Virus genome (UHGV): UHGV-0241990
DNA length: 13,531 nt
Reading direction: 5' to 3' (one strand)
Source: a virus
Shown piece after piece: positions 1 to 13,319 of this stretch (the first letter of the stretch is position 1; each line of letters begins with the position of its first letter). A model generated the notes under the pieces. That model had not been told where the DNA came from and did not search any database. It worked only from the letters and a program-made list of their open reading frames with translations. Position numbers and translations under genes: made by a program.

Positions 1-829
1 CCACCATATCGCCTAACGCATGCGGCTGGAACTGTGGGACCAGATAAGCAGTATTCTCTGGCAGACTATCCATTTGCACCACACGCAGAGCTAAGCCCGG
101 AATGCGGAAGGTCGGGAAGCCCGGCAGAATATCCTCAGGGAACATCAGACCTTTGTCGGTAATATTCTGATTGCCGAACAACAGCACTTTACGGAGCAGT
201 TCATCAGTCTGAATTGCAGCAAAGAGCTCAGCACGGCAGAACAGGGTGAAACCACGCAGAGCGCGAACAACACCACGCTGTTTAACCTTGCTCAGTGCAA
301 CCAGGTCCTGCAGCTGTTTAAGGATATCTTGAGCTAGATCCACTTCTGAAGTGGTTTGCTGTGCGCCCAGCAGTTCGCACACATTCAGTTCTTTACCCTT
401 GGTAAGGATAATTTTGTTCTCAAAGAGAGCAAGCTGGCGTGCTTCTTCATGGGTCGCGCGTAGTCCTTCACCCAGTTGAATAACACGACGAGCGGTTACA
501 GACTCTAAATTCTCTTCGGAATCTTTGCCCGGAACACGGATACCTTGCCAGTCAGAAGGATAAATAGCACTTGATGCGGCAGTGAATGCCATATCACCCG
601 TGCCCGTTTCACGCTCATCTGCGGTAATGGTAGCCATCTGTTCACCGTAGCGCGGATACTGACCGAAAGCGGTTTGTTTCACCTGGCGAACTTTGTCATA
701 TTCAAATTTAAAGGTATTGCACAGGGCTGTAGTGTTGAAGATATCCATTGCTGAAATAATCTGGTTATCCAGCGGGATGTCTTTAATCAGACCACACAGA
801 TCGCGAACTTCAAATTCTTTCTTAGCCAT
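1..829 (-). CDS. putative major capsid protein (N-terminal ~276 codons; gene runs past window start)
   Basis: Minus-strand frame opens at ATG 829..827 and runs to position 1 with no stop (frame hand-checked over several segments). GGAGG Shine-Dalgarno at 840..836, 6 nt upstream. Begins MAKKEFEVRDL. Lies directly downstream of the decoration-like gene (lambda D-E type order). Capsid call is from context and protein character, not confirmed homology. Confidence 0.5.
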   Translation of the reverse strand, partial: MAKKEFEVRDLCGLIKDIPLDNQIISAMDIFNTTALCNTFKFEYDKVRQVKQTAFGQYPRYGEQMATITADERETGTGDMAFTAASSAIYPSDWQGIRVPGKDSEENLESVTARRVIQLGEGLRATHEEARQLALFENKIILTKGKELNVCELLGAQQTTSEVDLAQDILKQLQDLVALSKVKQRGVVRALRGFTLFCRAELFAAIQTDELLRKVLLFGNQNITDKGLMFPEDILPGFPTFRIPGLALRVVQMDSLPENTAYLVPQFQPHALGDMV

Positions 830-840
830 CTTCAACCTCC

Positions 841-1176
841 TTATTGTGCAACACGCAAATCGCCATTGCTGGCAGCAATAACAGCGGCTAAGCCTTCTTT
901 ATCCACGTAGGCCGGATTGATGTAGCAACCTTTGTTCGCAACAACGATAAAAGCGTCACCAACCTCAGCACGTTCTACAACCAGCAGCGGAGTTTTACCG
1001 GTGTGCGTTGCTTTAACGAATGTTTCAACCTCGCCTTCCTCAGTCACCACAACAACAGTGCCAGCCGGAATCTCAGCCTTAACTTTGTTTTTAATTTCAA
1101 CGTCGCGAATAGAAAATTGCTCATCTGCGGCGTATGAAATGATGTGTCCGCGTGTGCGGATAGTCATATCTCTCAT
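841..1176 (-). CDS. head decoration protein-like (lambda gpD / DUF2190-like), 111 aa
   Basis: ORF from track. AGGTGA SD just upstream of ATG at 1176; stop 841-843 abuts the SD of the next gene. Beta-rich core (PLLVVERAEVGDAFIVVANKGCYINPAYV) resembles the gpD-type decoration fold pattern (recalled, not searched). Confidence 0.55.
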   Translation of the reverse strand: MRDMTIRTRGHIISYAADEQFSIRDVEIKNKVKAEIPAGTVVVVTEEGEVETFVKATHTGKTPLLVVERAEVGDAFIVVANKGCYINPAYVDKEGLAAVIAASNGDLRVAQ

Positions 1177-1229
1177 TTGATCACCTGCGATTTAAATTAA
1201 CTCCCCTCAAAGAGTTCCGGTATAACCTC

Positions 1230-1620
1230 TCAAACCACGACAGGCTCGGGCCGAAAAGTTATGCCGGAAATCTAAAGGGAAATTGATACAAGGAGAGGGA
1301 GATAGCCCCGCACCGTAGCCAAGCGGGGGCTATTCCACATGGGGAAACCGACAACAGTCGGATGATAGTTCACAGTATGGGTTACGGTTACTAGAGAGCA
1401 CTATCACGAAAGGCACTCCCCCGGATCAGTTCAGGCTGCGGTCACATCAGCGGGGAAATACCTTTCGGGATAGCTACCCACACAGAAAACCCGCAAAAGA
1501 AAACTGTGTGGATAACTAGCCCAATAGGAGAATTAATCGACCACTCAACGATGATCAGGGTAGTGTTATTTATAAGGCGGCACCGCTACCTGGTCGCCTT
1601 TACTTTGGAGGAAAATACGG
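1230..1620. other. structured, ORF-free, locally GC-enriched segment (candidate leader or ncRNA)
   Basis: No ORF of 60 aa or more on either strand. Hairpin 1302-1333 (ATAGCCCC / GGGGGCTAT arms) and hairpin 1478-1511 (8-bp stem CCACACAG / CTGTGTGG). A 9/9 DnaA-box-like TGTGGATAA at 1507-1515. Confidence 0.25.
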
Positions 1621-1943
1621 CAAATCACTTTCACCATTGATTTACGGTATATGTATATTATATCAGTATTCTCTCAAATTGTCAACCCCCTTATTATATA
1701 AATTCTAATAATTAGCGTAGTAACGGTATTTTCAGACCTCTATCAATCCCATCAATACGTCATCTCATCGCATCTATCATAACTTTTTCATTCGTGATAG
1801 ATATCTTTTGATCAATATCAATGTTTTCCGGGGATTTACCCGGTTATAGTTCGAATCAAGGAAGGGTAGCATTGATAGAGACACCCAAAGGGGTGACTGA
1901 AAGTCACCTGGCATAGCCAGTGAAAGCACCCAACCGAGCAAAC

Positions 1944-1961
1944 AAATCAACTTCTCGCAAA
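1944..1961 (+). repeat. conserved 18-nt element AAATCAACTTCTCGCAAA, copy 1
   Basis: Identical to 2463-2480; ends exactly 11 nt before the ATG at 1973. Confidence 0.7.
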
Positions 1962-1972
1962 AGGTGATAGTT

Positions 1973-2095
1973 ATGGGTATCAAGAACAGTGCCAGCGCAT
2001 GGCAAAAGGCCAGGTTTCATCACCCACACATTGTTAAGGCAATTGAGGTGGTTGGAGTTTTAGCCCTGATGTTAGCTCTGTGTGTGGAGGTGTGA
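1973..2095 (+). CDS. small hydrophobic peptide, 40 aa (MGIKNSASAWQKARFHHPHIVKAIEVVGVLALMLALCVEV)
   Basis: Not in ORF track (below its apparent length cutoff). ATG 1973 with AAGGTGA SD 5 nt upstream; stop TGA 2093-2095. Basic N-terminus and predicted C-terminal TM helix. Preceded by the conserved 18-nt element. Confidence 0.4.
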   Translation: MGIKNSASAWQKARFHHPHIVKAIEVVGVLALMLALCVEV

Positions 2096-2173
2096 GATGG
2101 GCAAAGGAGGCAAAGTATTTTTAATAGGTCTGGCAGTCTTAGATTTTGTATTAATCATCATTGAGCGGAGTTT

Positions 2174-2434
2174 ATGACGGGAACTAAAGATATTAAGAGA
2201 CTGAGGGAAGAGCTGATAGCTGAAATTAAAGCTAAGGCAAAGCAAATGGAGATAGCCGCACAAATGGATGTAGCGGAACAGATGTACAAGATGGTTGAGG
2301 AGGGAACGCCACGACAGGTCATCGCTAAAACCTTCGGTGTGGGGATCGCCACCGTGCACAGAAGGCTAAAAGCCTATGCCGACTACCACAATATCGAAAG
2401 AAAGGAGGATGGGAGATTTAAGAAGAATAAATAG
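2174..2434 (+). CDS. small HTH DNA-binding protein, 86 aa
   Basis: ORF from track; GGAG SD before ATG 2174. Helical N-terminus followed by an HTH-like segment TPRQVIAKTFGVGIATVHRRLK (resolvase / sigma region 4-type pattern). Confidence 0.75.
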   Translation: MTGTKDIKRLREELIAEIKAKAKQMEIAAQMDVAEQMYKMVEEGTPRQVIAKTFGVGIATVHRRLKAYADYHNIERKEDGRFKKNK

Positions 2435-2462
2435 TGTGAACAGTCCACCAGGTTATTAACTT

Positions 2463-2480
2463 AAATCAACTTCTCGCAAA
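2463..2480 (+). repeat. conserved 18-nt element AAATCAACTTCTCGCAAA, copy 2
   Basis: Identical to 1944-1961; ends exactly 11 nt before the ATG at 2492; followed by GGGG SD-like bases. Confidence 0.7.
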
Positions 2481-2491
2481 GGGGTACCACT

Positions 2492-3202
2492 ATGTTTAAG
2501 GGAATTATTGTTACACTATTAGCTTGCATTGTATTTGGTCCATGGGTGTTAGTAATTGCTTTGCCTCTATTACTAGTGATGAGTGTAGGGAAAGATATTA
2601 AAAAGCTGCATGCACAATATAAAGAGCACCCTGGAGCAGTCATAACAAGTCTGGTTATAGTCGCGGGGCTTATTGGCTGGGCCTACTTCTCTCTTCCCAC
2701 AGGAAATACAGCTGCAAATGTGGAAGAGGTGAACTCACAGCATGAAGAAGTGGTTAACGTCTCCGATCTTACATGGGAGGACAGGGTAAAAGCATATAAA
2801 TATATTTATGGTGTGCTAGATTGCGATCTCTCTAAAGATATAGGATGCACAGATAAATACCAGATTCACGCCTGGCTGTGGAATCATGCAGAAAAAGGTG
2901 CTTGCAACCAGATTAAAGTGGCGGTTAACAGTGGGGCACCTACTGGGAAAAATAAAGATGTTCTGACGGTATGGTGCAAGGATGTAAAAGGCAATGATCG
3001 TTGGCTACAGATGCGCCACATGGACGGTGTAAGCATAGAAACTACACGAACGGCTCGATGGTATAACGGTGAACTCGTTCACGAAGCATGGCAGAATAAC
3101 GCCTGGATCACTGAGGGAACACTCCTGAATGTTGATATGGAAGCATTGAAGATGCTTAATGAGATGTACGGTGAAGCCGTAGAAACCTCTCCTATGAAAT
3201 AA
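2492..3202 (+). CDS. membrane-anchored protein, 236 aa (two N-terminal TM helices plus soluble Cys-containing domain)
   Basis: ORF from track. Hydrophobic stretches IIVTLLACIVFGPWVLVIALPLLLV and ITSLVIVAGLIGWAYF, then a ~170-aa hydrophilic domain with several Cys. Followed immediately by a strong terminator. Confidence 0.85.
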   Translation: MFKGIIVTLLACIVFGPWVLVIALPLLLVMSVGKDIKKLHAQYKEHPGAVITSLVIVAGLIGWAYFSLPTGNTAANVEEVNSQHEEVVNVSDLTWEDRVKAYKYIYGVLDCDLSKDIGCTDKYQIHAWLWNHAEKGACNQIKVAVNSGAPTGKNKDVLTVWCKDVKGNDRWLQMRHMDGVSIETTRTARWYNGELVHEAWQNNAWITEGTLLNVDMEALKMLNEMYGEAVETSPMK

Positions 3203-3218
3203 CCACACCAACCCACCA

Positions 3219-3245
3219 GGGGGCCATCACGGCCCCTTTTTTATT
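3219..3245 (+). terminator. rho-independent terminator
   Basis: GGGGCC (3220-3225) / GGCCCC (3231-3236) stem, ATCAC loop, then TTTTTTATTT; 17 nt after the stop of the 236-aa gene. Confidence 0.85.
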
Positions 3246-3248
3246 TAT

Positions 3249-3303
3249 CCCCTATTTAACCCCTATTTAATGGGTATTTAATGCCTATTTATTGATTTAA
3301 TGG
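3249..3303. repeat. five tandem 11-bp units with TATTTAA core
   Basis: cccctatttaa (3249), cccctatttaa (3260), tgggtatttaa (3271), tgcctatttat (3282), tgatttaatgg (3293). Period is one helical turn. Confidence 0.6.
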
Positions 3304-3783
3304 TTTTGGGCATTGTTGACAGTGTAAGAGAGAGGATGTAACCCTTTTTTGCAATACTAATAAAATCAATAGCTTAGCTCAATTGGCCTTTTCTCTATTT
3401 TTGTCAAATTTAACATACCCTCAAAAACTGCAAAATCTGGCTGCAAGATTATCTGCAGCTGGATTTCTTACACCTCAATTTGTAGTATCACCCTGACTAG
3501 TTTGTGCATAAAATGAACAGTTTTTAACATTTCCTATTCACCTGGTAACCACACAAAAAGCTAAAAACGAGGCACAGATAATCTTAGAGGCCTGTTTTCT
3601 TGTTATCACTCTGGGAACGTCGTAGAAGTGATTTTGATGAAAGATGACCTACCCTATTACACCCCCATTTTTTGTTATCACAATTGCATCCTGTGCGGTG
3701 TATGGCTGTGTGCTGAAAGCGGTCTTGGGTGTGGGTGTCAGAAATATCCATTAGCGGTATTAATACCCGTCAGATGTTCGTCT

Positions 3784-3820
3784 GAGGTGCCAGGCAGGCG
3801 CTCCCCCACCTCCCTTTTTT
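3784..3820 (+). terminator. orphan terminator-like hairpin plus T-run in non-coding DNA
   Basis: GAGGTG (3784-3789) pairs CACCTC (3807-3812) with GC-rich inner pairing, followed by CC TTTTTT (3815-3820). No annotated gene upstream on this strand. Confidence 0.4.
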
Positions 3821-4368
3821 CTTCTAACAATTCTCAAATATCACACCACTGCCGACCACGTTGCTATTATGTTAATTCTTAAGCTTTGCTGTATGTTGTG
3901 CACATTATTTATTCAGGTGGCTGTACGTAAATTCTGTGCCCACTGATCATGATTTTTAAATCAGATTTTGTAGTGCGCTTTATTAGTGTAGATAAGATCT
4001 ATTATGTTAAATGCAATTTTCCCAACCCTTCAAATCAATGACTTACATGTAAGCATGCACTAACACCCCACACAGCACATTAGACGTATAGATGGCTATA
4101 TCCCACATTTTTGATTGTTTTGTAGTCATTCCCCTGATCATTTAACCAGTATAGTTTGTTCTCTGTAGACCACAAAACCGGAATTTACATCTGATTAACA
4201 TAATCTGTTAGCATGATCACCATTACCCACACAACAATAACCCCATGCAAGCCTCTTCAGGCAATTTATCGGCGTGTTGGTGTGAACAGTCTTTCATGTT
4301 CTTTATGTATTCATTGTCCTGTGTGAGGGAAGGATGGACTGCCCCAGGGGCCATAGTTATGACACCCG

Positions 4369-4404
4369 GTCAACATAACTGTTGATAAAATCAACGGGTG
4401 TTGA
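4369..4404. promoter_or_regulatory. pair of palindromic operator-like sites TCAACA-N4-TGTTGA and ATCAAC-N4-GTTGAT
   Basis: 4369-4384 TCAACATAACTGTTGA and 4389-4404 ATCAACGGGTGTTGAT share half-site TCAAC / GTTGA; centres 20 bp apart. CCCCAGGGG palindrome at 4341-4349 just upstream. Confidence 0.45.
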
Positions 4405-4525
4405 TCTGCATATTTCCCACACATGAGAGAAAATCAAAGCAAAGAGAGAGGAGAGAGGTTTGCTAGTCAAAATAGGTCAATTGACGGCTAATACAGAGTA
4501 AAAAATCAGATGCAATCACTCCCCC

Positions 4526-4795
4526 ACCTGTTGGGATTTCCTACAACCCCTTTCAGTCATACTCAGGCACCACACCCCGGTAAATATTACCGCACTAACC
4601 TGTAAAGAATTTTCACACCTGTGTGTTTATACAGTCATACTCTCCTGTTTTGCAGTCATTGCACCCATGATACACAGCCCCTAACCTGTCAAAATATTTT
4701 ACTACCCCACCAATAATACGGCCCATACCTGTAAAATATTTTTACTACTACCTGTCAAAATCTTTTACTACTACCTGTAAAAATATTTGACACTA
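4526..4795. repeat. iteron array: ACCTGT-containing ~23-bp repeats with near-palindromic core GT(C)AAAATATTTTAC
   Basis: Well-conserved copies starting near 4598, 4684, 4727, 4750, 4773 (spacings 86, 43, 23, 23 bp). Degenerate ACCTGT/CCTGT copies at 4526, 4617, 4644. Inverted repeat CGGTAAATATTACCG at 4578-4592. Confidence 0.65.
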
Positions 4796-4825
4796 ATAGA
4801 TAAAGTAATAGACCACACAATAGAT

Positions 4826-4859
4826 CCCCCCCTAACCCCCCAGGGGGGAATGGGGAGGG
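4826..4859. repeat. homopolymer C/G tract palindrome (C7-TAA-C6-A-G6-AAT-G4-A-G3)
   Basis: Read directly: ccccccctaaccccccaggggggaatggggaggg. CCCCCC A GGGGGG centred at 4842. Shorter CCCCAGGGG relative at 4341-4349. Confidence 0.5.
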
Positions 4860-5377
4860 ATCAGAGAGTGGGGAAGGTTTTCTAAGGGAAAAGCTTAACC
4901 CACAAATGAAAGCCTAAAGAGCATTAGCGACTCTTTAGGCAATATGTGTGTGGGGGTGACAATGTATTCCATACATGACACGTCACCCAATTGTGTGTGG
5001 GAGTGCCTACGGCACCTTAGCCCATGGCTAAGCCCTTCGGGTCTGTGTGTGGTCCGGCGAATGCGTCAGCATGAGGCCCACATGTGGACCGCTGCCGAAA
5101 GCTTGCCAGCGCCGGAAGGAGGCAGCAAAGAGTCTCCCGCGCGGGTGCACGCACACATATATAAAGGATACACTCATAAATCGAAAATAAGCCCCCTAAA
5201 TGGCCTTCTGGCTGCATTAACTAGTGTGAGTAGTGCAATTGCATTACCTGACCTCTAAATCGCGTTAGAATCGATTTTAGAGCGCTTAAGGCAAAAAGTG
5301 CCCTCCCTTGTGGGCTTGCTTGTGTCTGCTGTGCAGGCTATGGCACCTATAGCACACCTAAATGATAATAATTCTCA

Positions 5378-5406
5378 TTGACAATTGGTTGACAATATGA
5401 TAAGAT
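5378..5406 (+). promoter_or_regulatory. sigma70-like promoter candidate P1 with duplicated TTGACAAT
   Basis: TTGACA 5378-5383, 17-bp spacer, TAAGAT 5401-5406 (4/6). A second TTGACAAT at 5389-5396, 11 bp downstream of the first. Confidence 0.4.
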
Positions 5407-5441
5407 TATAAATAGGGGGAGAAACAGATCCGGAGGTCAAT

Positions 5442-5591
5442 GTGGAAATTACTGATGCAATAGCGATCATCAACCTGGCTGTACTGTGGTGCGGTGTTGC
5501 CTACATAGCCGGAGTAACTGCAATCGACAATCTTGAAGAAAAAATGATAGATAAATACAAAAAGATTGTTGACAATTTGACGAATGTCTGA
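5442..5591 (+). CDS. small GTG-initiated ORF, 49 aa, predicted TM helix (VEITDAIAIINLAVLWCGVAYIAGVTAIDNLEEKMIDKYKKIVDNLTNV)
   Basis: GGAGG at 5432-5436, 5 nt before GTG 5442; stop TGA 5589-5591. Not in track (short, non-ATG start). Protein-like composition, unlike the antisense track ORF 5406..5606. Confidence 0.3.
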   Translation: MEITDAIAIINLAVLWCGVAYIAGVTAIDNLEEKMIDKYKKIVDNLTNV

Positions 5592-5597
5592 TAAAAT
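5569..5597 (+). promoter_or_regulatory. near-consensus sigma70 promoter P2 for the plus-strand operon
   Basis: TTGACA 5569-5574, exactly 17-bp spacer, TAAAAT 5592-5597; predicted start ~5604, giving a ~120-nt leader before ATG 5725. Confidence 0.6.
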
Positions 5598-5724
5598 ATA
5601 AAGCATAGGGTAATTCTCATCATAGTGAATTTCCTTTAGTAGACTGGCGGGGGCTTGTCTTAAGTTCCCGTTTCTTTTTAATCATATATCGCACAGGTTA
5701 GTGAGCTAACAGGAGGCTTATACT

Positions 5725-5940
5725 ATGGCTAAAACCGGACCGATCAGCCAGCTGGTAAACTGGACTACTGACGAAATCGTCGAGAACGTACTTAAGGGGA
5801 ACTTCCGCAAAACTTCCGTTTATGCATTCATTCGTAAACATAAAGGAGAATATCCACACATTGAAGAAGCAATTTTAAAACTAAATTGCATTCGCCTTGA
5901 GCGGGAACTGGCTAAATACACCAATAACATTAATAAATAA
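5725..5940 (+). CDS. hypothetical small protein, 71 aa
   Basis: ORF from track; AGGAGG SD 5711-5716, 8 nt before ATG 5725; first gene downstream of P2. Confidence 0.7.
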   Translation: MAKTGPISQLVNWTTDEIVENVLKGNFRKTSVYAFIRKHKGEYPHIEEAILKLNCIRLERELAKYTNNINK

Positions 5941-5953
5941 TTATGGGGGAATT

Positions 5954-6820
5954 ATGGCAAGTAATTACGGGGAAAATTTTACTCCCCTTTTTAAACGTTT
6001 CATCAAATACATTTTTAAAAATCCGATTGCAAAAACTACAACCAATAAAGAAAGATTTCACTTAAACTTGTTGGAAATGACAATTTACGGTGAGATGGCA
6101 AGTTTTAATGCTGCAGGTTGTGAAATATTTATCTCTGAACAGAGATTAGCAGACGATTATGATGTTTCAAGACCGACAGTTATTAACTCGATTAAATCTC
6201 TAGAAAATGCCGGGCTTATTTCAATAGTTAAAAGTAAAGGCAAATCTAATCATTACAAACTGCTAATTACCCCTGATCAGCTTGGCAAGATGTGTGATGA
6301 GCAGGGTATTAAAACCTCCGACAGTGTGGGATCTAGTAAAGAGGCCCCCGATAATCAACAGGAAGCCCCAAAACAACCCACACAGCAAGCTAAAAAGGCC
6401 GAGGTGGTGCAATTGCCTACCCAACCTAAGAACGAGCGCAGAGAGCGCTTTAGAGACGCTGGCAAACGTGAGAAAGATGAGCACGGTTATCCGATTCTGA
6501 CAAGTGATGAGATGAACGCCAAATACAAAGGGATTCAGGCAACATTTAAGGATCGGAAGAGCATTAAACTCTCTGAATTGCGAGATGCATTTTACGGGCC
6601 GGAGGTGATGGATAAAATTAAAGGCACCGTTGAGGGTAGAATCTGGAAAGAAGATGATTATTGGCATTTAACAGAACAGGCCCTTAAGGTGGCTCAACAT
6701 GTAGCTAAAAGAGGTAAAACAATTATCATCGATTATATTAGTCATGGCTATGATGCCCCGAAAGAAAGATTGTGGAACAACTGCAAGCTTGTAAAAGGCG
6801 AATTAACCATTACAAAATAA
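5954..6820 (+). CDS. winged-HTH DNA-binding protein, candidate replication initiator or iteron-binding regulator, 288 aa
   Basis: Track ORF 5897..6820; start moved to in-frame ATG 5954 (GGGGGA upstream, avoids 44-nt overlap with previous gene). HTH segment ISEQRLADDYDVSRPTVINSIKSLENAGLISIVK, a Q/P/K/E-rich linker, then a distinct C-terminal domain. Lies ~1.2 kb downstream of the iteron array. Confidence 0.8.
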   Translation: MASNYGENFTPLFKRFIKYIFKNPIAKTTTNKERFHLNLLEMTIYGEMASFNAAGCEIFISEQRLADDYDVSRPTVINSIKSLENAGLISIVKSKGKSNHYKLLITPDQLGKMCDEQGIKTSDSVGSSKEAPDNQQEAPKQPTQQAKKAEVVQLPTQPKNERRERFRDAGKREKDEHGYPILTSDEMNAKYKGIQATFKDRKSIKLSELRDAFYGPEVMDKIKGTVEGRIWKEDDYWHLTEQALKVAQHVAKRGKTIIIDYISHGYDAPKERLWNNCKLVKGELTITK

Positions 6821-6859
6821 ACATTCTTATTTTTTACAGTATTCTAAAGGAAATTTAAA

Positions 6860-7006
6860 ATGTATGGCGATCTTGATTATTACCTGGAAAAGGAAAAATA
6901 TTTTGAAGATGAACTATCACAACATTTTTCATATTGGGAAGAATATTGTGGTTGGTTAGCTGAAGATCCAGCAGATGAAGAAAATGATTCTGACATCCCT
7001 TATTAA
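6860..7006 (+). CDS. tiny acidic protein, 48 aa (MYGDLDYYLEKEKYFEDELSQHFSYWEEYCGWLAEDPADEENDSDIPY)
   Basis: Not in track (short). AAGGA SD 8 nt before ATG 6860; stop TAA 7004-7006. Fills the otherwise empty gap between flanking genes. Strongly acidic with aromatic residues. Confidence 0.45.
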   Translation: MYGDLDYYLEKEKYFEDELSQHFSYWEEYCGWLAEDPADEENDSDIPY

Positions 7007-7104
7007 TTAATATCCCCTGTTATCCCCAAACAAACTAAATAAACAAACTAAGCACTAGAACTAGATTGATTGCCCTGATCTTTTAAACGTTCGGAGAATT
7101 AATC

Positions 7105-7593
7105 ATGTTCAAATCTGATCTTTCTGATTCCCAATTTGAAAAACTGGTAGCACTGCAGAAATATCTCCCCAGTGATGATCAACCAACACGACAGGCTAAA
7201 CACTTATTAGTCGAGGGCTTTACCCCTGAATTCGTGGCGGAATATACAGGCGTTAAACTTGAGAAAGTCCAAAAACTATATAATGAGTCCTGGAATCCAC
7301 GGTGTCGAGTTCCCCTCAGTGTCTACAACGAAATAGATAGAGATAGAAATGTCTTCGAAGATCGCCGCCGCAAATCTCTTTTAATGTGGAATTGTGGGAT
7401 GAATATTGAAGAGATAGCAAAAGAATTAAAAGTAACCTGCTTTCATATCTGGGGCTTGTTGAGTGAAATCCTGCCACGTAAGGAGCTTAATCAACGTTTG
7501 CCTAAGCCCGGTAGTCGTGCTTATCGCGAATTTATATTCATCTACCGCCGCCATAGAAATAAAGTCCAGAAAGCAATGGCCCAGAAAGCCTAA
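7105..7593 (+). CDS. putative DNA-binding protein with two sigma region 4-like HTH segments, 162 aa
   Basis: ORF from track; GGAG SD 8 nt before ATG 7105. HTH-like segments FTPEFVAEYTGVKLEKVQKL and MNIEEIAKELKVTCFHIWGLLSEIL; basic C-terminus. Confidence 0.8.
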   Translation: MFKSDLSDSQFEKLVALQKYLPSDDQPTRQAKHLLVEGFTPEFVAEYTGVKLEKVQKLYNESWNPRCRVPLSVYNEIDRDRNVFEDRRRKSLLMWNCGMNIEEIAKELKVTCFHIWGLLSEILPRKELNQRLPKPGSRAYREFIFIYRRHRNKVQKAMAQKA

Positions 7594-7666
7594 GTTTTAT
7601 CTCTTCGATTTATTTATTTTCGACTCACTTTAACCCCTTCCGGGGCTCTAATTTAAGGAATTCCAA

Positions 7667-8110
7667 ATGTCTCAAATCGCTAAATTATTATCCCAGGTAA
7701 TCAAAGCTTTCGACGCTGAAGATTCAAAAGTTCGCCAGGATCTTTTAGATGGCAAGTTTACCAACACCCTGGCATTTACCCGTGACAAAGAGCACTTCTT
7801 AAAACACAGACACCACGCTTTTGCTGAATGCAAGTCCGCTAATGGTGATGTTTTCTATGTCGATTTGGTGGTTATGGCATGTAGGCTGTGGATGATTCAG
7901 GACCTTATGCGCCAACACGGTGATGATCCTCTTATCAGCATGTGGAACAGCGCCCAGGATGGCTTTGTGATTGCTGCCTTATCCAAATCAATGATTGAGG
8001 CAGAAGGGGCAAGCCTTCAGAACATGGCAGATCTCTTTGAAATAAGCGTAGGAATGATGCAGACCATGCTCCAAGCTGTCAAACCTCTCAAACTGGTTAA
8101 TCTTGATTAA
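7667..8110 (+). CDS. hypothetical protein, 147 aa
   Basis: ORF from track; AAGGA SD 7 nt before ATG 7667. No recognisable motif. Confidence 0.8.
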   Translation: MSQIAKLLSQVIKAFDAEDSKVRQDLLDGKFTNTLAFTRDKEHFLKHRHHAFAECKSANGDVFYVDLVVMACRLWMIQDLMRQHGDDPLISMWNSAQDGFVIAALSKSMIEAEGASLQNMADLFEISVGMMQTMLQAVKPLKLVNLD

Positions 8111-8170
8111 GCTATTGATAAATAAGCACTCCCCATTTTTTGGGGGGTGCATCAATGAGAGGATATGCCT

Positions 8171-8554
8171 ATGAATATTGAAGAAATGATAGTTGAATTC
8201 GAAGAGGGTGATTTCCTGGAAGAAGGGGAGTTTAGTTACTCCCATTTTAAACAGGCGTTATTTAGCAGCGATGATAAACCACACGTTAGTGATCTTAACG
8301 ACGATGATTTATGTCGTTGGGTATGCACCCGCTTAAATGAAGATGGAAAGTATACAGGCCAAAACTTTCCAAATCTCTATTTCAAAGCACAAACATTTGA
8401 GGAAGGGCAAAGAGTGAAAAACCTGGTCGATAAAATGCTGTCAGCCGGATATTTGCATAAAGAATTATTAAATCCTAAAGCTGAAAGCAAGCGCCATTAT
8501 ATTTTTGTGTGGACTATTGGCGATAAGTGTCCACTAAGACGCAAAGGCAAATGA
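8171..8554 (+). CDS. hypothetical acidic protein, 127 aa (129 aa if started at 8165)
   Basis: Track ORF 8165..8554. GAGAGGA at 8157-8163 is only 1 nt from ATG 8165 but 7 nt from ATG 8171, so 8171 preferred. Stop TGA 8552-8554 lies 1 nt before the next ATG. Confidence 0.7.
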   Translation: MNIEEMIVEFEEGDFLEEGEFSYSHFKQALFSSDDKPHVSDLNDDDLCRWVCTRLNEDGKYTGQNFPNLYFKAQTFEEGQRVKNLVDKMLSAGYLHKELLNPKAESKRHYIFVWTIGDKCPLRRKGK

Positions 8555-8555
8555 T

Positions 8556-8792
8556 ATGAATATCTACGAAAAGATTTATCAAAAACTGGTTAAGGACTCC
8601 GAAGACACGCCCGAAGGGGTGACAATAGGTCACCTGCCAGAGGCAGCGAAAGAGGGGTCCACCATTATTAAAAGTAGCTCCCACACAGAAGGCCTCTCAA
8701 TCGAAGAGCTGGCGGAGAAATATAATATTGATAAAGAGGCCCTGAAAAGGGCTATTTCATTATCAAAATCTTTAAGACAGGGCGAGGTATAA
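8556..8792 (+). CDS. hypothetical protein, 78 aa
   Basis: ORF from track; tightly packed between neighbours (stop 8790-8792, next ATG 8794), consistent with translational coupling. Confidence 0.7.
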   Translation: MNIYEKIYQKLVKDSEDTPEGVTIGHLPEAAKEGSTIIKSSSHTEGLSIEELAEKYNIDKEALKRAISLSKSLRQGEV

Positions 8793-8793
8793 A

Positions 8794-10935
8794 ATGGCAA
8801 TGAAGGAAGTAGCCAGACTAACAAACGTTATTTACTGGGACTCTGATAAATCCTCCTGGCGAAAAGAAGTTAAACGGCTTGAGGATTATAAAAAATCCTG
8901 GAAGAAAGCTACCGACGATATAGCTAAAGCTGATTTTAAATCTAATCAGGCTGTGCTCAGAACACAAAGAACACGCGCTAAGGTGGAAGAGCAGATAGCC
9001 AGAGCTCAGAGGAAACAACAGGAAGCACAGAAGAAACAACGTGCTCAGGCTGTCAGCCGTCTGACCGGGGGCAACAATGCCGAACTTAACTCTATGCGCA
9101 AGTTCTACCAACAACAAGCCAGAGAAGCCGCCAGACAACAAAAACTGTTAGATCGTAGTGTTGGAGATGTTCAGCACAGAAAAGCACGTGTAGGGGCCAA
9201 CAGTGCACGAATCAGCAGCATGTTTGATGGATCCCTGGTTGCTCAGTTCCAAAGCAGAATCCAGAGAGTTAATGCTGATTATGCTAAAGGGGCTATTAAC
9301 CTGCAGACCTATAATCAGAAAATGGCCCGACTCAGAGCTGAAATGAAGATGGCCTCTAGAGATGCCACCACCTTTCAAAGCAAGCTAGATAAACTGGCAG
9401 CAGGTGCGAGCAAGGTGCATAACAATATCGGCAAGCTTAACAGTGCTTTAGGCAAGATAGCCATTGGCCTGACCGCTGCAGGATGGGGTATTCAGAGAGC
9501 TGTTAGTGGTGCTATGAGCGCTCAATCTGACCATAACTCAGCCTATTATGGTTTGCTTGCTCAGAACAAGGATGATAAAGCCAAGACTGACCAGCAGATG
9601 GCTTTTATCGAGAACACAGCCAACACCTACGGGATGGATCAGCGTGAGATGGAGGGTGGCTATATGCGTTTTGCTGCCGCTACTCCCACCATGAAGGAAT
9701 CTGATAAGCAGGCTCTTTTTGAGGCTATGGCGATTAAAGGCCGCTCAGTGGGTGCTACTGGCGAGCAACAGAACAGGGCGCTTGTTGCGGTCCAACAAAT
9801 GGCTTCAAAAGGAAGAGTAGCTGCGGAAGAGCTGCGTGGCCAGCTGTCAGAAGCCTTTGCAGGCTCACAACAGGATTTTCAACAGGCCGCTATTGATGCC
9901 GGAATCATCAAGAGTGCCCAGGAATTCGATAAAGCCATGGCAGATGGCAAAATCACCCTGGACAAGCTTCTTCCCTCTCTAGTGAAAATCTGGGGTGCTG
10001 CAAAAGAAACTGACGCTTTTGCTAAATCTATGCAACAGCCTGAAGTGGCACTGCAGAGAATGAGCAACCAGTTTTTTAAACTAAAGCAATCCTTTATGGG
10101 TGTTGTGGATCCTGCGGATGGCGTCATTACCCTGTCAGAATCCCTTATTTATATCTTTGAAGATTTATCCTCAATTTTCAGTAGCTCAGGTGAAGATGCC
10201 AAATCTCTCGGAGTTATGTTAGGCGAGGCAATGCATGAAATTTATTTTTGGGTCAACTGGGCTTGGTGGTGGACTAAGAAGATCGCCAAAGGCATTGGTG
10301 AGACGTTAGGCTGGACCGCACAGGATGCAGGCGAGAAGATTGGCCAGGTTGTGACCGCCCTGTTAGGCCTGAAGGTTGCAACAAGCATTGCTGGCATGGT
10401 TGGCGGCCTTATTTCCATGCTGTGGAAACTTAAAGCGGCGCTTAGTGCTTTAGTCGGTGTTGGTGATATCAGCACTGGAGGCACAGCAGGCAAAGGCAGA
10501 CCAGGTAGAGGCGGCTTTATCGGGAAAGCAGGCAGACTTGGAGGAAGATTTGCAGGTCCGGCAGGGATTGTTTTGACAGGATTTGACATTGCAAATAGCT
10601 TAGATTCCTACTGGCAGAATCCTGATAATCAGCGGCAGGAAGGAGCTAAACATCCTGAATGGTTAACCAGTATGGTTAATAGTGCTTCTAGCTTCCTTGG
10701 CCTTGATTATCGTCTGGACGCAGGACGCTACATTACCAGACCAACACCAACGGGTGGTATTGCTATTCAGAATGGAGGCTATCAGCCGACTCAAATCAGT
10801 GTAGTTCCGCAGGGTGAGATCTCCGGCAAGTGGGAGATAACCATTGATGAGGGGGGAATTGCCAGGGTGATCCAGAAGGAAGTCAGCGATCAGCTGGATT
10901 GGAAAGCCACACAGGAAGCTAATCAGCTTTTCTAA
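8794..10935 (+). CDS. tape-measure-like protein, 713 aa
   Basis: ORF from track. Long charged Q/K/R/E-rich helical N-terminus; central segment GEQQNRALVAVQQMASKGRVAAEELRGQLSEAFAG resembling the conserved tape-measure domain (recalled). Hydrophobic segments (VVTALLGLKVATSIAGMVGGLISMLW) and a Gly-rich stretch (GGTAGKGRPGRGGFIGKAGRLGGRFAG). Confidence 0.8.
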   Translation: MAMKEVARLTNVIYWDSDKSSWRKEVKRLEDYKKSWKKATDDIAKADFKSNQAVLRTQRTRAKVEEQIARAQRKQQEAQKKQRAQAVSRLTGGNNAELNSMRKFYQQQAREAARQQKLLDRSVGDVQHRKARVGANSARISSMFDGSLVAQFQSRIQRVNADYAKGAINLQTYNQKMARLRAEMKMASRDATTFQSKLDKLAAGASKVHNNIGKLNSALGKIAIGLTAAGWGIQRAVSGAMSAQSDHNSAYYGLLAQNKDDKAKTDQQMAFIENTANTYGMDQREMEGGYMRFAAATPTMKESDKQALFEAMAIKGRSVGATGEQQNRALVAVQQMASKGRVAAEELRGQLSEAFAGSQQDFQQAAIDAGIIKSAQEFDKAMADGKITLDKLLPSLVKIWGAAKETDAFAKSMQQPEVALQRMSNQFFKLKQSFMGVVDPADGVITLSESLIYIFEDLSSIFSSSGEDAKSLGVMLGEAMHEIYFWVNWAWWWTKKIAKGIGETLGWTAQDAGEKIGQVVTALLGLKVATSIAGMVGGLISMLWKLKAALSALVGVGDISTGGTAGKGRPGRGGFIGKAGRLGGRFAGPAGIVLTGFDIANSLDSYWQNPDNQRQEGAKHPEWLTSMVNSASSFLGLDYRLDAGRYITRPTPTGGIAIQNGGYQPTQISVVPQGEISGKWEITIDEGGIARVIQKEVSDQLDWKATQEANQLF

Positions 10936-10980
10936 CTGGTTGATAATAAAAGCCCCTCGGGATTTGTCATCCTTTGGGGC

Positions 10981-10992
10981 TCAACTTCTCGC
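10981..10992 (+). repeat. third copy of the core TCAACTTCTCGC
   Basis: Exact 12-nt match to the core of the 18-nt element at 1944 and 2463; lies just after a hairpin (10953-10981) downstream of the tape-measure-like gene. No start codon at the 11-nt distance. Confidence 0.5.
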
Positions 10993-11389
10993 CTGGCAAG
11001 TGTGATCATCTGCAGAGAGAAAGTCAACTCTCTTTCTGTTCACGTTTGATCATTCATACCGTTTGTTTTATATTCATCAGTGGAAACAGATCCCAGAGGT
11101 TAACGCGACCTCTAAGAGAAAATAAGCGTCTATGATCTGGAGTATCTTGTAGAGCACTGGGCTTGATGCGGCCTCACCCTAACCAAGGTGATAAACAGGC
11201 AAACGTTGGTGGTTCTGCTCTCTTACCCGGCAATAAGTGATAAGCCAAAACTAAGAGATGCCCACACGGTTTCACCGCACCGGAATATAAGCAGGTACCT
11301 GATAAAGCTGATCTACATGAAAACCTGAAAACCCCTAAATGATGCTAGTGTTTCTCCTTACCACCAACACGGCATCAAAAAGAGTTCTA

Positions 11390-11418
11390 TTGTCTGAATT
11401 CAGGATTTTGGCTATAAT
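11390..11418 (+). promoter_or_regulatory. sigma70-like promoter for the 49-aa ORF
   Basis: TTGTCT 11390-11395, 17-bp spacer, perfect TATAAT 11413-11418. Confidence 0.55.
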
Positions 11419-11452
11419 GTAGGCGTAGCAGGTCATAAGAAGGGGTGACACT

Positions 11453-11602
11453 ATGAAGAATGCCAATGCCATTAAGCGAAATAACCGCAAGATTCACGCT
11501 CGCAAGTTTCTCAAGACTGAAGAAGGCCGGAAATGGTTAGAAGAGAAGCAGAAGGAACGGCAGGAGATAAAGCTTGTGCGGGAATTATCCCAGTTTATCT
11601 AA
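11453..11602 (+). CDS. small basic protein, 49 aa (MKNANAIKRNNRKIHARKFLKTEEGRKWLEEKQKERQEIKLVRELSQFI)
   Basis: Not in track (short). AAGGGGTGA SD before ATG 11453; stop TAA 11600-11602. Own promoter and terminator. Confidence 0.6.
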   Translation: MKNANAIKRNNRKIHARKFLKTEEGRKWLEEKQKERQEIKLVRELSQFI

Positions 11603-11612
11603 TCTCAGAGAG

Positions 11613-11639
11613 AGGGGCTATCAGGCCCCTTTCTTGTCT
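11613..11639 (+). terminator. rho-independent terminator
   Basis: AGGGGC (11613-11618) / GCCCCT (11625-11630) stem, 6-nt loop, then TTCTTGTCT. Overlaps the stop codon of the convergent minus-strand gene. Confidence 0.6.
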
Positions 11640-12079
11640 ATGTCTACCCAGTATTTGATTGCACCGATCAAATCATCATAGTGGCGCATTGCATCATTGA
11701 AGCCTTTATAGCTTGCCCATTGTGGGGAAACCTTGTTATTGCTGAATTGCCCACTAATCAGGATAGTCTCCAAAATGTCGGCGTATCGCTTGCCAATTCG
11801 CTTTCTGACGGCCTCAGAGCTCCCACCCTTTACGATTGCATTAATCAGGGCTTTTGTGTGTCTCAGGCTCTCATAGAGCATTGCAGCGTGGGCAGACTCC
11901 ATAAATGAGCGCTTAGGCAAATCACCCCACCCCTCAGAGTGGATAGCCGCCAGTGTGGCGTAATTCAGGCCGCTATAGTGTTTCCCGTCATCCCAGCCAA
12001 CCGCTACACCTTCCATCTGTGAGAGCTCTTTATGCAGCTTATCCATCATGCGCTTGTCTATGGTGCACCGGACTTTCAT
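11621..12079 (-). CDS. putative virion morphogenesis protein, 152 aa
   Basis: ORF from track; start ATG overlaps the stop of the upstream gene (ATGA at 12076-12079). Segment VGWDDGKHYSGLNYATLAAIHSEGWGDLPKRSF is reminiscent of small head-tail or tail-completion proteins (weak, recalled). Confidence 0.75.
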   Translation of the reverse strand: MKVRCTIDKRMMDKLHKELSQMEGVAVGWDDGKHYSGLNYATLAAIHSEGWGDLPKRSFMESAHAAMLYESLRHTKALINAIVKGGSSEAVRKRIGKRYADILETILISGQFSNNKVSPQWASYKGFNDAMRHYDDLIGAIKYWVDIDKKGA

Positions 12080-12843: not shown

Positions 12844-12948
12844 ATTGAACATGCCTCAAAAATGAATCTTTTCGTTGCCCTGCTTAAAATCTGCAGAAAA
12901 TACAGGGCAGTTATTCGTTAGAATCGCTTATAGCTCTTCCCGAGAGCG

Positions 12949-13209: not shown

Positions 13210-13234
13210 CTCAAAAACTTAAGACGGGGATAAT

Positions 13235-13295
13235 AAAAAAGGGAAGAGGGAAAGACCTATCCCCGATCTCTCACCTCTTCCCTTTGCTTTTATTT
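13235..13295. terminator. bidirectional intrinsic terminator
   Basis: GGGAAGAGG (13241-13249) pairs CCTCTTCCC (13274-13282). Flanked by an A-run (13235-13240, read as T-run on the minus strand) and TTTGCTTTTATTT on the plus strand. Confidence 0.6.
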
Positions 13296-13319
13296 GGCCT
13301 TCGAAGAAGGACCTTATTT

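What the first reader, a model, noticed from the sequence alone, without database searches (positions are those of the whole stretch)
1944..2494. Identical 18-nt element at a fixed 11-nt distance upstream of two start codons, with a third core copy after the tape-measure-like gene
AAATCAACTTCTCGCAAA occurs at 1944-1961 and 2463-2480, each followed by G-rich SD-like bases and an ATG exactly 11 nt later (1973 and 2492). The 12-nt core TCAACTTCTCGC recurs at 10981-10992. By rough estimate a given 12-mer should recur by chance well under once in a window this size. The flanks and downstream coding sequences are unrelated, so this is not a simple gene duplication. Candidates are a phage-specific promoter, a shared translational operator, or a processing or recombination site.
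Basis: seen in the sequence. Interest (0 to 1): 0.65.

Follow-up and report, generated by a model that had tools for sequence, protein, structure and literature searches.

The report
Predicted antisense RNA and two targets
The repeated 12-base core most likely marks the two ribosome entry sites that a small antisense RNA, encoded on the opposite strand at the "third copy", can block; this is a familiar kind of control, found here in an apparently undescribed 13.5-kb E. coli plasmid that carries phage capsid and tail genes.

Summary
The 18-mer sits at 1944-1961 and 2463-2480, each 11 nt before an ATG, and the 12-mer core recurs at 10981-10992. The window is a whole circular 13.5-kb E. coli plasmid, so this is the genome-wide count. 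In 31 related plasmid loci, [T/A]CAAC[T/C]TCTCGC is the only block conserved across 40 distinct sequence contexts.

Copies 1 and 2 always lie 0-4 nt from a Shine-Dalgarno sequence. They mark the two independent ribosome entry sites of one operon. Copy 3 never precedes an ORF.

Read on the minus strand, copy 3 is GCGAGAAGUUGA. It starts at the predicted +1 of a sigma-70-like promoter (TTGACT, 17 nt, CACACT) and runs straight into a hairpin plus U-tract. Three strongly diverged alleles keep this layout.

Best explanation (confidence 0.55, no expression data): a ~50-nt trans-acting antisense sRNA pairs over 12 nt with both initiation regions (-21 kcal/mol; 17 other start sites give -3 to -9) and blocks translation. 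The closest analogues are type I toxin-antitoxin RNAs.

Promoter, processing-site and recombination-site readings are not supported. This is a new member of a known kind.

The parts
1947..1958 (+). Copy 1 (c1): predicted sRNA target, 12-mer core TCAACTTCTCGC inside the 18-mer 1944-1961. It lies 4 nt upstream of the SD AGGTGAT and at -26 to -15 relative to the sORF1 ATG (1973).
   Evidence: Core invariant in 30 of 31 family loci and 14 distinct contexts. Predicted duplex with the sRNA 5' end is -21.2 kcal/mol.
2466..2477 (+). Copy 2 (c2): predicted sRNA target, the same 12-mer inside the 18-mer 2463-2480. It lies 3 nt upstream of the SD GGGG and at -26 to -15 relative to the ATG (2492) of the variable gene.
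   Evidence: Conserved in 30 of 31 loci and 21 contexts, in front of at least 5 different downstream gene alleles. Duplex -21.2 kcal/mol.
10981..10992 (-). Copy 3 (c3), read on the minus strand: GCGAGAAGUUGA, the predicted single-stranded 5' seed of the antisense sRNA.
   Evidence: No conserved ORF follows it on the + strand (read directly). The seed starts at the predicted +1 in all three alleles. Mean unpaired probability is 0.71.
10943..10992 (-). Predicted sRNA gene of about 50 nt: seed, then terminator hairpin (GCCCC 10980-10976 pairing with GGGGC 10956-10952, inner stem GGAU/AUCC), then U-tract UUUUAUUAU (10951-10943).
   Evidence: MFE -17.3 kcal/mol, z = -3.0, 0 of 200 shuffles fold as well. 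The same layout occurs in alleles W2 (L135/L136) and R (most relatives), with the U-tract always on the minus strand. The region is unannotated in relatives.
10999..11027 (-). Candidate sigma-70 promoter of the sRNA: -35 TTGACT (11027-11022), 17-nt spacer, -10 CACACT (11004-10999, A2 and T6 present), then 6 nt to +1 G at 10992.
   Evidence: Sequence read directly. GAGTTGACTT and TG.T.ACA.T are conserved columns in an otherwise diverged alignment. In the R allele the tool itself reports TTGACT-18-TAACAT with a TG extension on the minus strand. Inferred only; no expression data.
1973..2434 (+). Chain of closely spaced cistrons controlled from c1: sORF1 (1973-2095, 40 aa, hydrophobic C-terminus), sORF2 (2097-2177, 26 aa, hydrophobic) and a Hin-like HTH protein (2174-2434). 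Junctions are TGAgATG and ATGA.
   Evidence: A chain of closely spaced or overlapping cistrons is also present in the L136 lineage.
2492..3202 (+). Variable membrane-anchored protein gene (236 aa) with its own ribosome entry site carrying c2. An intrinsic terminator follows at 3218-3238.
   Evidence: The downstream gene differs between relatives from the ATG onward.
1622..1645 (+). c0: a degenerate, hypervariable paralogue of the motif (AAATCA|CTTTCACCATTGA here). It lies at about +5 to +30 of the transcript from the perfect minus-strand sigma-70 promoter at 1685-1657.
   Evidence: (four alleles; the L125 allele equals 17 of 18 bases of the motif). Its complementarity to c1 and c2 is only weak in this window (z = -1.7 and +0.1).

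Best explanation
The 12-mer is the shared pairing site of an antisense-RNA circuit. On the minus strand, just past the convergent tape-measure gene, lies a minimal sRNA gene. It consists of a sigma-70-like promoter, a 12-nt single-stranded 5' seed (GCGAGAAGUUGA) and an intrinsic terminator, about 50 nt in all in this window. The seed is perfectly complementary to the 12 nt that lie 3-4 nt upstream of the Shine-Dalgarno sequences of sORF1 (copy 1) and of the variable membrane-protein gene (copy 2). These are the two independent ribosome entry sites of one operon. sORF2 and the HTH gene follow sORF1 with a 1-nt gap and a 4-nt overlap, which suggests translational coupling. Pairing at -26 to -15 would occlude the 30S binding site and repress translation of the whole operon. 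Shown here: sequence complementarity, co-conservation, terminator structure and strand, promoter-like elements. Inferred: that the RNA is made, that it pairs, and that pairing represses rather than activates. Repression is favoured because both initiation regions are essentially unstructured and so have nothing for an activator to open. The sRNA might instead be the 3' end of the minus-strand structural operon transcript; the mechanism would be the same.
For: (1) Over 40 distinct contexts in 31 family loci, the 12-mer is the only block invariant or nearly so, while both flanks diverge. (2) c1 and c2 lie 0-4 nt from an SD in every lineage, including L135 (CGC|AGGAG) and L116. c3 never precedes a conserved ORF. 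(3) Three alleles of the post-TMP region (W, W2, R) are otherwise strongly diverged. All keep, on the minus strand, TTGACT, a 16-18 nt spacer, a -10-like hexamer with A2 and T6, then 6-7 nt to the seed, then a hairpin and a U-tract. My estimate of such a promoter lining up with a given +1 by chance is about 1e-4. (4) The U-tract follows the hairpin only on the minus strand. On the plus strand the hairpin is followed by the motif itself. (5) The predicted sRNAs fold significantly (z -3.0 to -4.1), and the seed is free in W. (6) Of 19 start sites in the plasmid, only sORF1 and the variable gene give a strong duplex with the seed: -21.2 kcal/mol against -3.4 to -9.2. (7) The one internal polymorphism, T/C at core position 6, is what pairing tolerates: R-type seed G pairs with U (wobble) or C, and W-type seed A pairs with U. 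(8) The motif is G-poor and its two initiation regions are no more structured than shuffled controls (local MFE -3.4 and -4.8 kcal/mol, z about 0 and -0.9). (9) All sub-threshold Rfam matches that overlap the predicted sRNA lie on the minus strand (weak).
Against: There are no expression data of any kind. In this window the -10 (CACACT) is poor. The -35 hexamer sits in the loop of a short inverted repeat whose arms differ between alleles (AGAGAG/CTCTCT versus CCGGA/TCCGG), so that island might be conserved as a hairpin loop rather than as a promoter. Twelve base pairs ending 3-4 nt upstream of the SD is a short, slightly upstream site for direct occlusion. In the R and W2 alleles the seed is partly paired in the MFE fold (unpaired probability 0.44-0.67). 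No Rfam family matches at gathering level. Seed and targets never change together in the sample, so there is no true compensatory double change. The plus-strand copy at c3 could equally be a decoy for some other factor.
Confidence: 0.55

Rival explanations
1. RNA operator for a protein. A plasmid-, host- or helper-encoded RNA-binding protein recognises the single-stranded 12-mer next to the SD of both genes and represses or enhances translation. The plus-strand copy in the tape-measure 3' UTR acts as a decoy or autoregulatory site.
For: The motif lies 0-4 nt from the SD in all lineages, is G-poor, and its initiation regions are no more structured than shuffled controls. At c3 the plus-strand copy is displayed single-stranded, either between hairpins (W) or in a 24-nt loop of a 12-bp hairpin (R), with unpaired probability 0.68-0.77.
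Against: No RNA-binding domain was found in any plasmid protein. This reading does not explain the minus-strand promoter-like elements or the minus-strand orientation of the U-tract, both conserved in three diverged alleles.
Confidence: 0.13
2. DNA operator of the plasmid's own Hin-like HTH protein (2174-2434). The protein binds the asymmetric 12-bp site as a monomer or filament and acts as a roadblock or autoregulator at three places.
For: The HTH matches the Hin DNA-binding domain (PDB 1hcr, E=3.5e-4; Pfam HTH_7 E=3.6e-6). From my own knowledge, Hin binds a 12-13 bp asymmetric half-site that also contains ATCAA. The gene lies between c1 and c2.
Against: A DNA operator has no reason to stay 0-4 nt from an SD in flanks that otherwise differ completely. 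The predicted promoters lie 90 nt or more upstream of c1. ATCAA is not conserved: c2 of relatives reads TTCAA and L116 reads ACAAC.
Confidence: 0.12
3. Endoribonuclease processing site that cuts the polycistronic RNAs at cistron boundaries: before sORF1, before the variable gene and after the tape-measure gene.
For: All three copies lie at transcript or cistron boundaries on the sense strand. CAAC|UUC loosely fits the RNase E preference RN|WUU (my recollection).
Against: Known bacterial endoribonucleases read 3-7 nt or structure, not an invariant 12-mer. The T-to-C variant removes the best RNase E fit. The minus-strand gene-like layout at c3 is left unexplained.
Confidence: 0.06
4. Recombination or gene-conversion module. 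The copies are duplicated initiation-region cassettes that serve as homology for swapping genes, with no regulatory role.
For: c2 lies exactly at the border between the conserved HTH gene and a downstream gene with at least 5 alleles. c1 and c2 are paralogous over about 35 nt. c0 is a decayed paralogue, and in L125 it has been converted to the motif. Short hairpin modules move around in this family.
Against: c1 lies in uniformly conserved DNA. c3 lies inside, not at the edge of, the replaced post-TMP segment. The core stays invariant while its immediate flanks diverge, which is purifying selection on the 12-mer itself.
Confidence: 0.07
5. Promoter for a phage-type (single-subunit) RNA polymerase or a helper-encoded sigma factor, so that a helper phage switches on these genes.
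For: The 18-nt length and strand specificity fit, and a purine (often G) follows shortly after the core in all copies.
Against: The replicon has no RNA polymerase or sigma gene. Only 12 nt are conserved and the would-be -3 to -1 positions vary (AAA, AGG, CTG, GAG). The leader would be 12 nt or shorter. No multi-copy occurrence exists in IMG/VR (106 single chance hits), and nothing exceeds chance in 50,697 phage records.
Confidence: 0.03

Closest known systems
hok/mok/sok type I toxin-antitoxin (plasmid R1) (my own knowledge)
   Same: A small antisense RNA blocks the ribosome entry site of a leader ORF, and a small hydrophobic peptide gene downstream is translated only by coupling to it. Here sORF1 leads to sORF2 through TGAgATG. 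Both are plasmid-borne.
   Different: Sok is cis-encoded and overlaps its target. Here the sRNA gene lies about 9 kb away (4.5 kb the other way round the circle), pairs over only 12-15 nt and has a second target. sORF2 is absent in the L116 lineage. Toxicity and RNA half-lives are unknown.
Trans-encoded type I systems tisB/istR-1, shoB/ohsC, zorO/orzO (E. coli) (my own knowledge)
   Same: A short sRNA of 60-80 nt has 18-21 nt of complementarity to the 5' UTR of an mRNA for a hydrophobic peptide under 60 aa. The pairing site lies upstream of, or at, the ribosome loading site.
   Different: Those sRNA genes are immediately divergent from the toxin gene. There is no sequence or Rfam relationship (ohsC_RNA 18 bits against a gathering score of 50). 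Here a second, non-toxin-like gene carries the same site.
Immunity RNAs of phage P1/P7 (c4) and satellite P4 (CI RNA) (my own knowledge)
   Same: A phage or satellite replicon uses a small RNA whose short sequence is complementary to repeated target sites in an operon. In P1 one of the target sites covers a ribosome-binding site.
   Different: c4 and CI are processed from the same transcript as their targets, and CI acts by transcription termination. Here the RNA is convergent to an unrelated operon and has its own terminator. There is no sequence similarity.
Enterobacterial sRNAs with a 5'-terminal seed and several targets (for example RybB, OmrA/B) (my own knowledge)
   Same: The seed sits at the very 5' end, a Rho-independent terminator with a U-tail sits at the 3' end, and several mRNAs share one short conserved target sequence near the RBS.
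   Different: Those are chromosomal, Hfq-dependent and experimentally shown. Here the RNA is only predicted, is plasmid-specific and has targets on the same replicon.

Membership tests
Trans-acting base-pairing sRNA that controls translation initiation | Own transcription unit with a promoter on the sRNA strand | tested here: inconclusive
   TTGACT, 17 nt, CACACT, then 6 nt to +1 G in this window. The tool reports TTGACT-18-TAACAT (TG-extended) in relatives. These are conserved columns in a diverged alignment. The -10 is weak here, the -35 lies in an inverted repeat, and no transcript data exist.
Trans-acting base-pairing sRNA that controls translation initiation | Rho-independent terminator (hairpin plus U-tract) at the 3' end on the same strand | tested here: met
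   GCCCC...GGGGC followed by UUUUAUUAU, UUUUUCUUUU or UUUUUUCUU on the minus strand in alleles W, W2 and R. z = -3.0 to -4.1.
Trans-acting base-pairing sRNA that controls translation initiation | Accessible seed complementary to target mRNAs at or near the RBS | tested here: met
   12 of 12 complementarity to c1 and c2, which lie 3-4 nt upstream of the SD. Duplex -21.2 kcal/mol against -3.4 to -9.2 for 17 other start sites. Seed unpaired probability 0.71 in W.
Trans-acting base-pairing sRNA that controls translation initiation | Seed and target sites co-conserved across relatives | tested here: met
   c1 in 30, c2 in 30 and c3 in 26 of 31 loci, with the rest on truncated contigs. The 12-mer is the only conserved block over 40 contexts. 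The only internal change (T/C at position 6) is wobble-compatible. No double compensatory change was seen.
Trans-acting base-pairing sRNA that controls translation initiation | RNA detected and regulation demonstrated | not testable with these tools
   No transcriptome or reporter data are accessible.
Type I toxin-antitoxin system | Toxin is a small (under 60 aa) hydrophobic membrane peptide | tested here: inconclusive
   sORF1 is 40 aa (maximum Kyte-Doolittle over 17 residues = 2.43) and sORF2 is 26 aa (2.69). sORF1 is conserved in all lineages; sORF2 is missing in L116. No Pfam, NCBIfam or PHROG match. Toxicity untested.
Type I toxin-antitoxin system | Antitoxin RNA gene overlaps or lies directly next to the toxin gene | tested here: not met
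   The predicted sRNA lies at 10943-10992 and sORF1 at 1973-2095 on a 13,531-bp circle.
Type I toxin-antitoxin system | Match to a curated antitoxin RNA family | tested here: not met
   No Rfam hit at gathering score. The best are ctRNA_p42d at 23.6 of 50 bits and ohsC_RNA at 18 of 50 bits.
Single-subunit (T7-like) phage RNA polymerase promoter | Cognate polymerase in the genome, or many copies in a helper phage genome | tested here: not met
   No polymerase among the ORFs. Only single chance hits in IMG/VR, and chance-level 16-mers in 50,697 phage records.
Single-subunit (T7-like) phage RNA polymerase promoter | About 23 bp conserved through an AT-rich -4 to -1 and the +1 position | tested here: not met
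   Conservation is limited to 12 nt, and the 3' flank is AAA, AGG, CTG or GAG.
Module-boundary or recombination sequence (lambdoid boundary sequences, T4-type PeSL) | Copies lie at junctions between conserved and exchanged DNA | tested here: not met
   True for c2 only. c1 lies in uniformly conserved DNA, and c3 lies inside the exchanged segment.
DNA operator of the Hin-like HTH protein | Site positioned at a promoter and bound by the protein | not testable with these tools
   An HTH_7/Hin-like domain is present. The sites are next to the SD rather than a promoter. Binding cannot be computed here.

The most novel reading that the evidence does not exclude
The sRNA and its two targets form the timing switch of an undescribed plasmid-borne phage satellite. 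The sRNA keeps the membrane-peptide, HTH and variable-protein operon silent while the element lives as a plasmid; that operon also appears to have an FNR-type, anaerobically activated promoter. When the convergent replication-to-tape-measure operon is strongly transcribed, for example on helper infection, read-through across 10943-11030 occludes the sRNA promoter and supplies a perfectly complementary sponge (plus-strand c3). This would release translation of exclusion or lysis-like membrane proteins. Alternatively or additionally, the pair acts as a post-segregational killing module for a plasmid that carries no recognisable partition or protein toxin-antitoxin genes.
Probability: 0.18. Interest if true: 0.72.

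Novelty: new member of a known kind. Interest (0 to 1): 0.5.

Why it matters
If confirmed, the element gives a compact, testable regulatory circuit: a roughly 50-nt RNA and two 12-nt sites. It sits in a widespread but apparently undescribed family of 13.5-kb E. coli/Shigella plasmids that carry capsid, decoration, tape-measure, Dit-like and tail-completion genes but no terminase or portal. It would identify which plasmid genes are kept silent (small hydrophobic peptides, a Hin-like regulator and a hypervariable membrane protein). It would also offer a handle, through seed mutants, for asking what this plasmid family does, including whether it is a phage satellite. The regulatory principle itself is well known.

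Tried and rejected
- **Helper-phage motif.** An exact 15-mer scan of IMG/VR gave 106 single hits and no contig with more than one copy. A BLAST of a 31-mer against 50,697 phage records gave only chance-level 16-mers. A literature search for the sequence found only primers.
- **Complementarity to 16S rRNA (translational enhancer).** The duplex energy is -13.3 kcal/mol against a background of -12.3 +/- 1.7. Rejected.
- **Another antisense partner in the plasmid.** Neither the duplex scan nor a wobble-aware pattern search found anything beyond the motif's own complement.
- **Local SD-sequestering hairpin.** MFE is -2 to -5 kcal/mol and z is about 0 to -1.1. Rejected.
- **c0 as a general antisense in the leftward leader RNA.** It is strong only in L125 (z = -6). 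In this window z is -1.7 for c1 and +0.1 for c2, and the targets are not the top hits in whole-plasmid scans. Rejected as the general mechanism.
- **Small ORF after c3.** It is not conserved between alleles (read directly).
- **Rfam.** No match at E <= 1 in the whole window and none at gathering score in the c3 regions.
- **More distant relatives.** The MCP search of GTDB representative genomes, IMG/VR and JGI metagenomes found none, or only near-identical plasmids. A full plasmid of the divergent L116 lineage could not be retrieved.
- **SP6-promoter-like 11-mer at 11443-11453.** Judged a coincidence; my estimate is about 0.1-0.3 expected across the known promoter set.
Full report
**Observation.** The 18-mer AAATCAACTTCTCGCAAA occurs exactly twice, at 1944-1961 and 2463-2480 on the + strand. 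Even with 3 mismatches allowed, 0.02 matches are expected, and 0 of 200 shuffles gave two. The core TCAACTTCTCGC occurs exactly three times, at 1947, 2466 and 10981, all on the + strand. Each 18-mer is followed by 11 nt that contain an SD-like purine run, and then an ATG (1973 and 2492). The gene ending at 10935 is tape-measure-like.

**What the window is.**
- The window matches, end to end and in circular permutation, a set of 13.2-13.7 kb circular E. coli plasmids. One 39.6-kb record is a trimer and one 26.7-kb metagenome contig is a dimer.
- On the minus strand it carries a decoration-like gene, a major-capsid-like gene (PHROG 29; no tblastn match in 50,697 phage records), a Dit-like gene and a tail-completion-like gene.
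- On the plus strand it carries a small operon (sORF1, sORF2, a Hin-like HTH protein and a variable gene), a roughly 2.5-kb non-coding stretch with iterons, a replication initiator, several unknown genes and the tape-measure gene.
- The family is common in E. coli and Shigella assemblies. I found no paper that describes it.

**Conservation.**
- In 31 family loci, copy 1 (c1) is present in 30, copy 2 (c2) in 30 and copy 3 (c3) in 26. The remainder are truncated contigs.
- Over 40 distinct 70-nt contexts, the only block that stays invariant or nearly so is [T/A]CAAC[T/C]TCTCGC.
- In the divergent lineages (L116, L133-L137) both flanks of c1 and c2 are quite different, yet the core is intact.
- The functional unit is therefore the 12-mer, not the 18-mer. 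Its distance to the ATG is 13-17 nt, not strictly fixed.
- The motif is specific to this family. IMG/VR holds only single chance hits, and phage records hold only chance 16-mers.

**Position of c1 and c2.**
- Both always lie 0-4 nt 5' of a Shine-Dalgarno sequence: CGC-AAAA-GGTGA, CGC-AAA-GGGG, CGC-AAA-GGATGA and CGC-AGGAG.
- sORF1 and sORF2 are separated by 1 nt (TGAgATG, 2093-2099). sORF2 and the HTH gene overlap (ATGA, 2174-2177).
- A chain of closely spaced or overlapping cistrons, with one extra ORF, is also seen in the L136 lineage.
- The variable gene follows after a 57-nt gap. The two copies therefore mark the two independent ribosome entry sites of the operon. This points to control of translation rather than of transcription.
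- Neither initiation region is more structured than shuffled controls, and neither is complementary to 16S rRNA above background.

**Copy 3.**
- It is never followed by a conserved ORF.
- The region between the tape-measure stop and the convergent tail-completion gene exists in three strongly diverged alleles: W (this window, L117, L121), W2 (L135/L136) and R (most relatives).
- These alleles share only short islands of identity. Read on the minus strand, the islands make sense together:
  - GAGTTGACTT is a -35 element (TTGACT).
  - TG.T.ACA.T is the -10 region. It reads TGcTAACAT in R, which the scanning tool itself reports as TTGACT-18-TAACAT, and CACACT with A2 and T6 in W.
  - Six to seven nt further on, GCGAGA(A/G)GTTGA begins, at the predicted +1.
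  - Then come a GC-rich hairpin and a U-tract: UUUUAUUAU, UUUUUCUUUU or UUUUUUCUU.
- On the plus strand the same hairpin is preceded by the A-tract and followed by the motif, so it terminates minus-strand transcription.
- The predicted RNAs are 50 nt (W), 61 nt (W2) and about 91 nt (R). They fold significantly better than shuffles (z = -3.0, -4.1 and -3.5), and the seed is free in W.
- In window coordinates: -35 at 11027-11022, -10 at 11004-10999, +1 at 10992, seed 10992-10981, stem arms 10980-10976 and 10956-10952, U-tract 10951-10943.

**Pairing.**
- The seed pairs perfectly over 12 nt with c1 and c2.
- Among 19 translation start regions of the plasmid, only sORF1 and the variable gene give a strong duplex: -21.2 kcal/mol against -3.4 to -9.2 for the others.
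- The single internal polymorphism is T/C at core position 6. The R-type seed has G there, which pairs with the U of c1 and c2 by wobble and would pair perfectly with the C of c2 in L116. The W-type seed has A.

**Mechanism proposed.** A small minus-strand RNA pairs at -26 to -15 of both initiation regions. It is made either from its own promoter or as the 3' end of the structural operon transcript. Pairing hinders 30S binding and so represses the whole four-gene operon.
- Shown: complementarity, co-conservation, terminator structure and strand, and promoter-like elements.
- Inferred: that the RNA is expressed, that it pairs, and that the effect is repression.
- sORF1 (40 aa) and sORF2 (26 aa) are hydrophobic peptides. 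The closest analogues are therefore type I toxin-antitoxin systems: hok/mok/sok for the coupled leader-ORF logic, and tisB/istR-1, shoB/ohsC and zorO/orzO for short trans complementarity in the 5' UTR. Membership in that family fails on gene adjacency and on any Rfam match.
- The plus-strand c3 lies in the tape-measure 3' region. It would be a perfect sponge for the sRNA if the tape-measure operon reads through; this is speculative.

**A fourth, decayed paralogue (c0).**
- At about 1622-1645, right after a conserved block, the family has a hypervariable segment with at least four alleles. All start with AAATCA followed by a CTTC-type run. One allele (L125) equals 17 of 18 bases of the motif.
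- c0 lies at about +5 to +30 of the transcript from the perfect minus-strand promoter (TTGACA-17-TATAAT, 1685-1657). The leader of the capsid operon therefore carries an antisense-like sequence.
- Except in L125, its complementarity to c1 and c2 is weak. I do not count it as part of the mechanism in this window.

**Rivals.**
- *RNA operator for a protein, with c3 as decoy (0.13).* It fits the position and accessibility of the sites but not the minus-strand gene-like layout.
- *DNA operator of the Hin-like HTH protein (0.12).* It has a candidate binder but does not explain why the site stays next to the SD.
- *Recombination or gene-conversion cassette (0.07).* It fits c2 only.
- *Processing site (0.06).* Nothing specific supports it.
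- *Phage-polymerase promoter (0.03).* No polymerase is encoded, the 3' flank is variable, and no phage carries copies.

**Verdict.** The finding is real and functional. This is a new member of a well-known kind of regulation. Its setting, a capsid- and tail-gene-bearing mini-plasmid family, is the more unusual thing.

Noticed in passing
window 1-13531 (whole): The window is a complete circular plasmid of about 13.5 kb from a family common in E. coli and Shigella. It encodes major-capsid-like, decoration-like, tape-measure, Dit-like and tail-completion-like proteins plus a theta-type Rep with iterons, but no terminase, portal or protease. The capsid protein has no tblastn match in 50,697 phage records. 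Some records are exact multimers (a 39.6-kb trimer and a 26.7-kb dimer). It looks like an undescribed plasmid-borne phage satellite or defective element, and I found no paper on it.
   Followed up: partly
window 1808-1821 and 1845-1850: There is a perfect FNR-type palindrome, TTGATCAATATCAA. Its centre lies about 41.5-42.5 bp upstream of the start site predicted from the -10 hexamer TATAGT. The half-sites are conserved while the 4-nt spacer varies (CAAT, CCTG, GTAG) across relatives including L116. This suggests that the operon carrying copy 1 has a class II FNR-dependent (anaerobic) promoter.
   Followed up: partly
window 1641-1685 and 1200-1650 (minus strand): A perfect sigma-70 promoter on the minus strand (TTGACA-17-TATAAT with TG) overlaps a weaker plus-strand promoter (TTTACG-17-CAGTAT), which looks like a divergent switch. 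The minus-strand transcript has a conserved, structured leader of about 450 nt before the decoration and capsid genes. One hairpin (loop CAGGUAGCGGU) shows compensatory stem changes between this window and L116.
   Followed up: partly
window 1772-1779 and 1795-1802: Inverted repeat ATCTATCA-N15-TGATAGAT lies upstream of the FNR-like site. The arms are conserved and the spacer varies in relatives, so it is a likely operator for a dimeric DNA-binding protein.
   Followed up: no
window 1878-1928, 8603-8652, 5027-5046; L007 4183-4231: Modules of about 48 nt made of two or three small hairpins, starting ACAsCCCrAAGGG, occur at varying places in the family. Sites include upstream of copy 1 (present in only some plasmids), upstream of copy 2 in L007, between the 83-aa gene and the capsid gene in others, inside the 78-aa ORF, and in the long non-coding region. 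They behave like small mobile or copy-pasted intergenic elements.
   Followed up: partly
window 1622-1645: A hypervariable short segment (c0) has at least four alleles inside otherwise conserved DNA. It overlaps the -35 region of the rightward promoter and the first 30 nt of the leftward transcript. This pattern is reminiscent of specificity determinants in antisense or immunity systems.
   Followed up: partly
window 2492-3202: The gene after copy 2 is a replacement hotspot with at least five alleles (236, 225, 195, 179 and 173 aa) that differ from the ATG onward. At least two of them (this window's and L116's) share a C-terminal domain (…YKYIYGV.DCDL…KYQIHAWLWNHA…GACNQIK…) behind different N-terminal hydrophobic segments. 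There is no family match.
   Followed up: partly
window 3240-5700: About 2.5 kb has no convincing ORF. It contains four 22-23-bp iterons (4684-4794), many CCCACAC-type words and several strong hairpins. That is an unusually large non-coding share for a 13.5-kb replicon.
   Followed up: no
It overlaps the SD and ATG of a 49-aa ORF that is present only in the W allele. Judged a coincidence.
   Followed up: no
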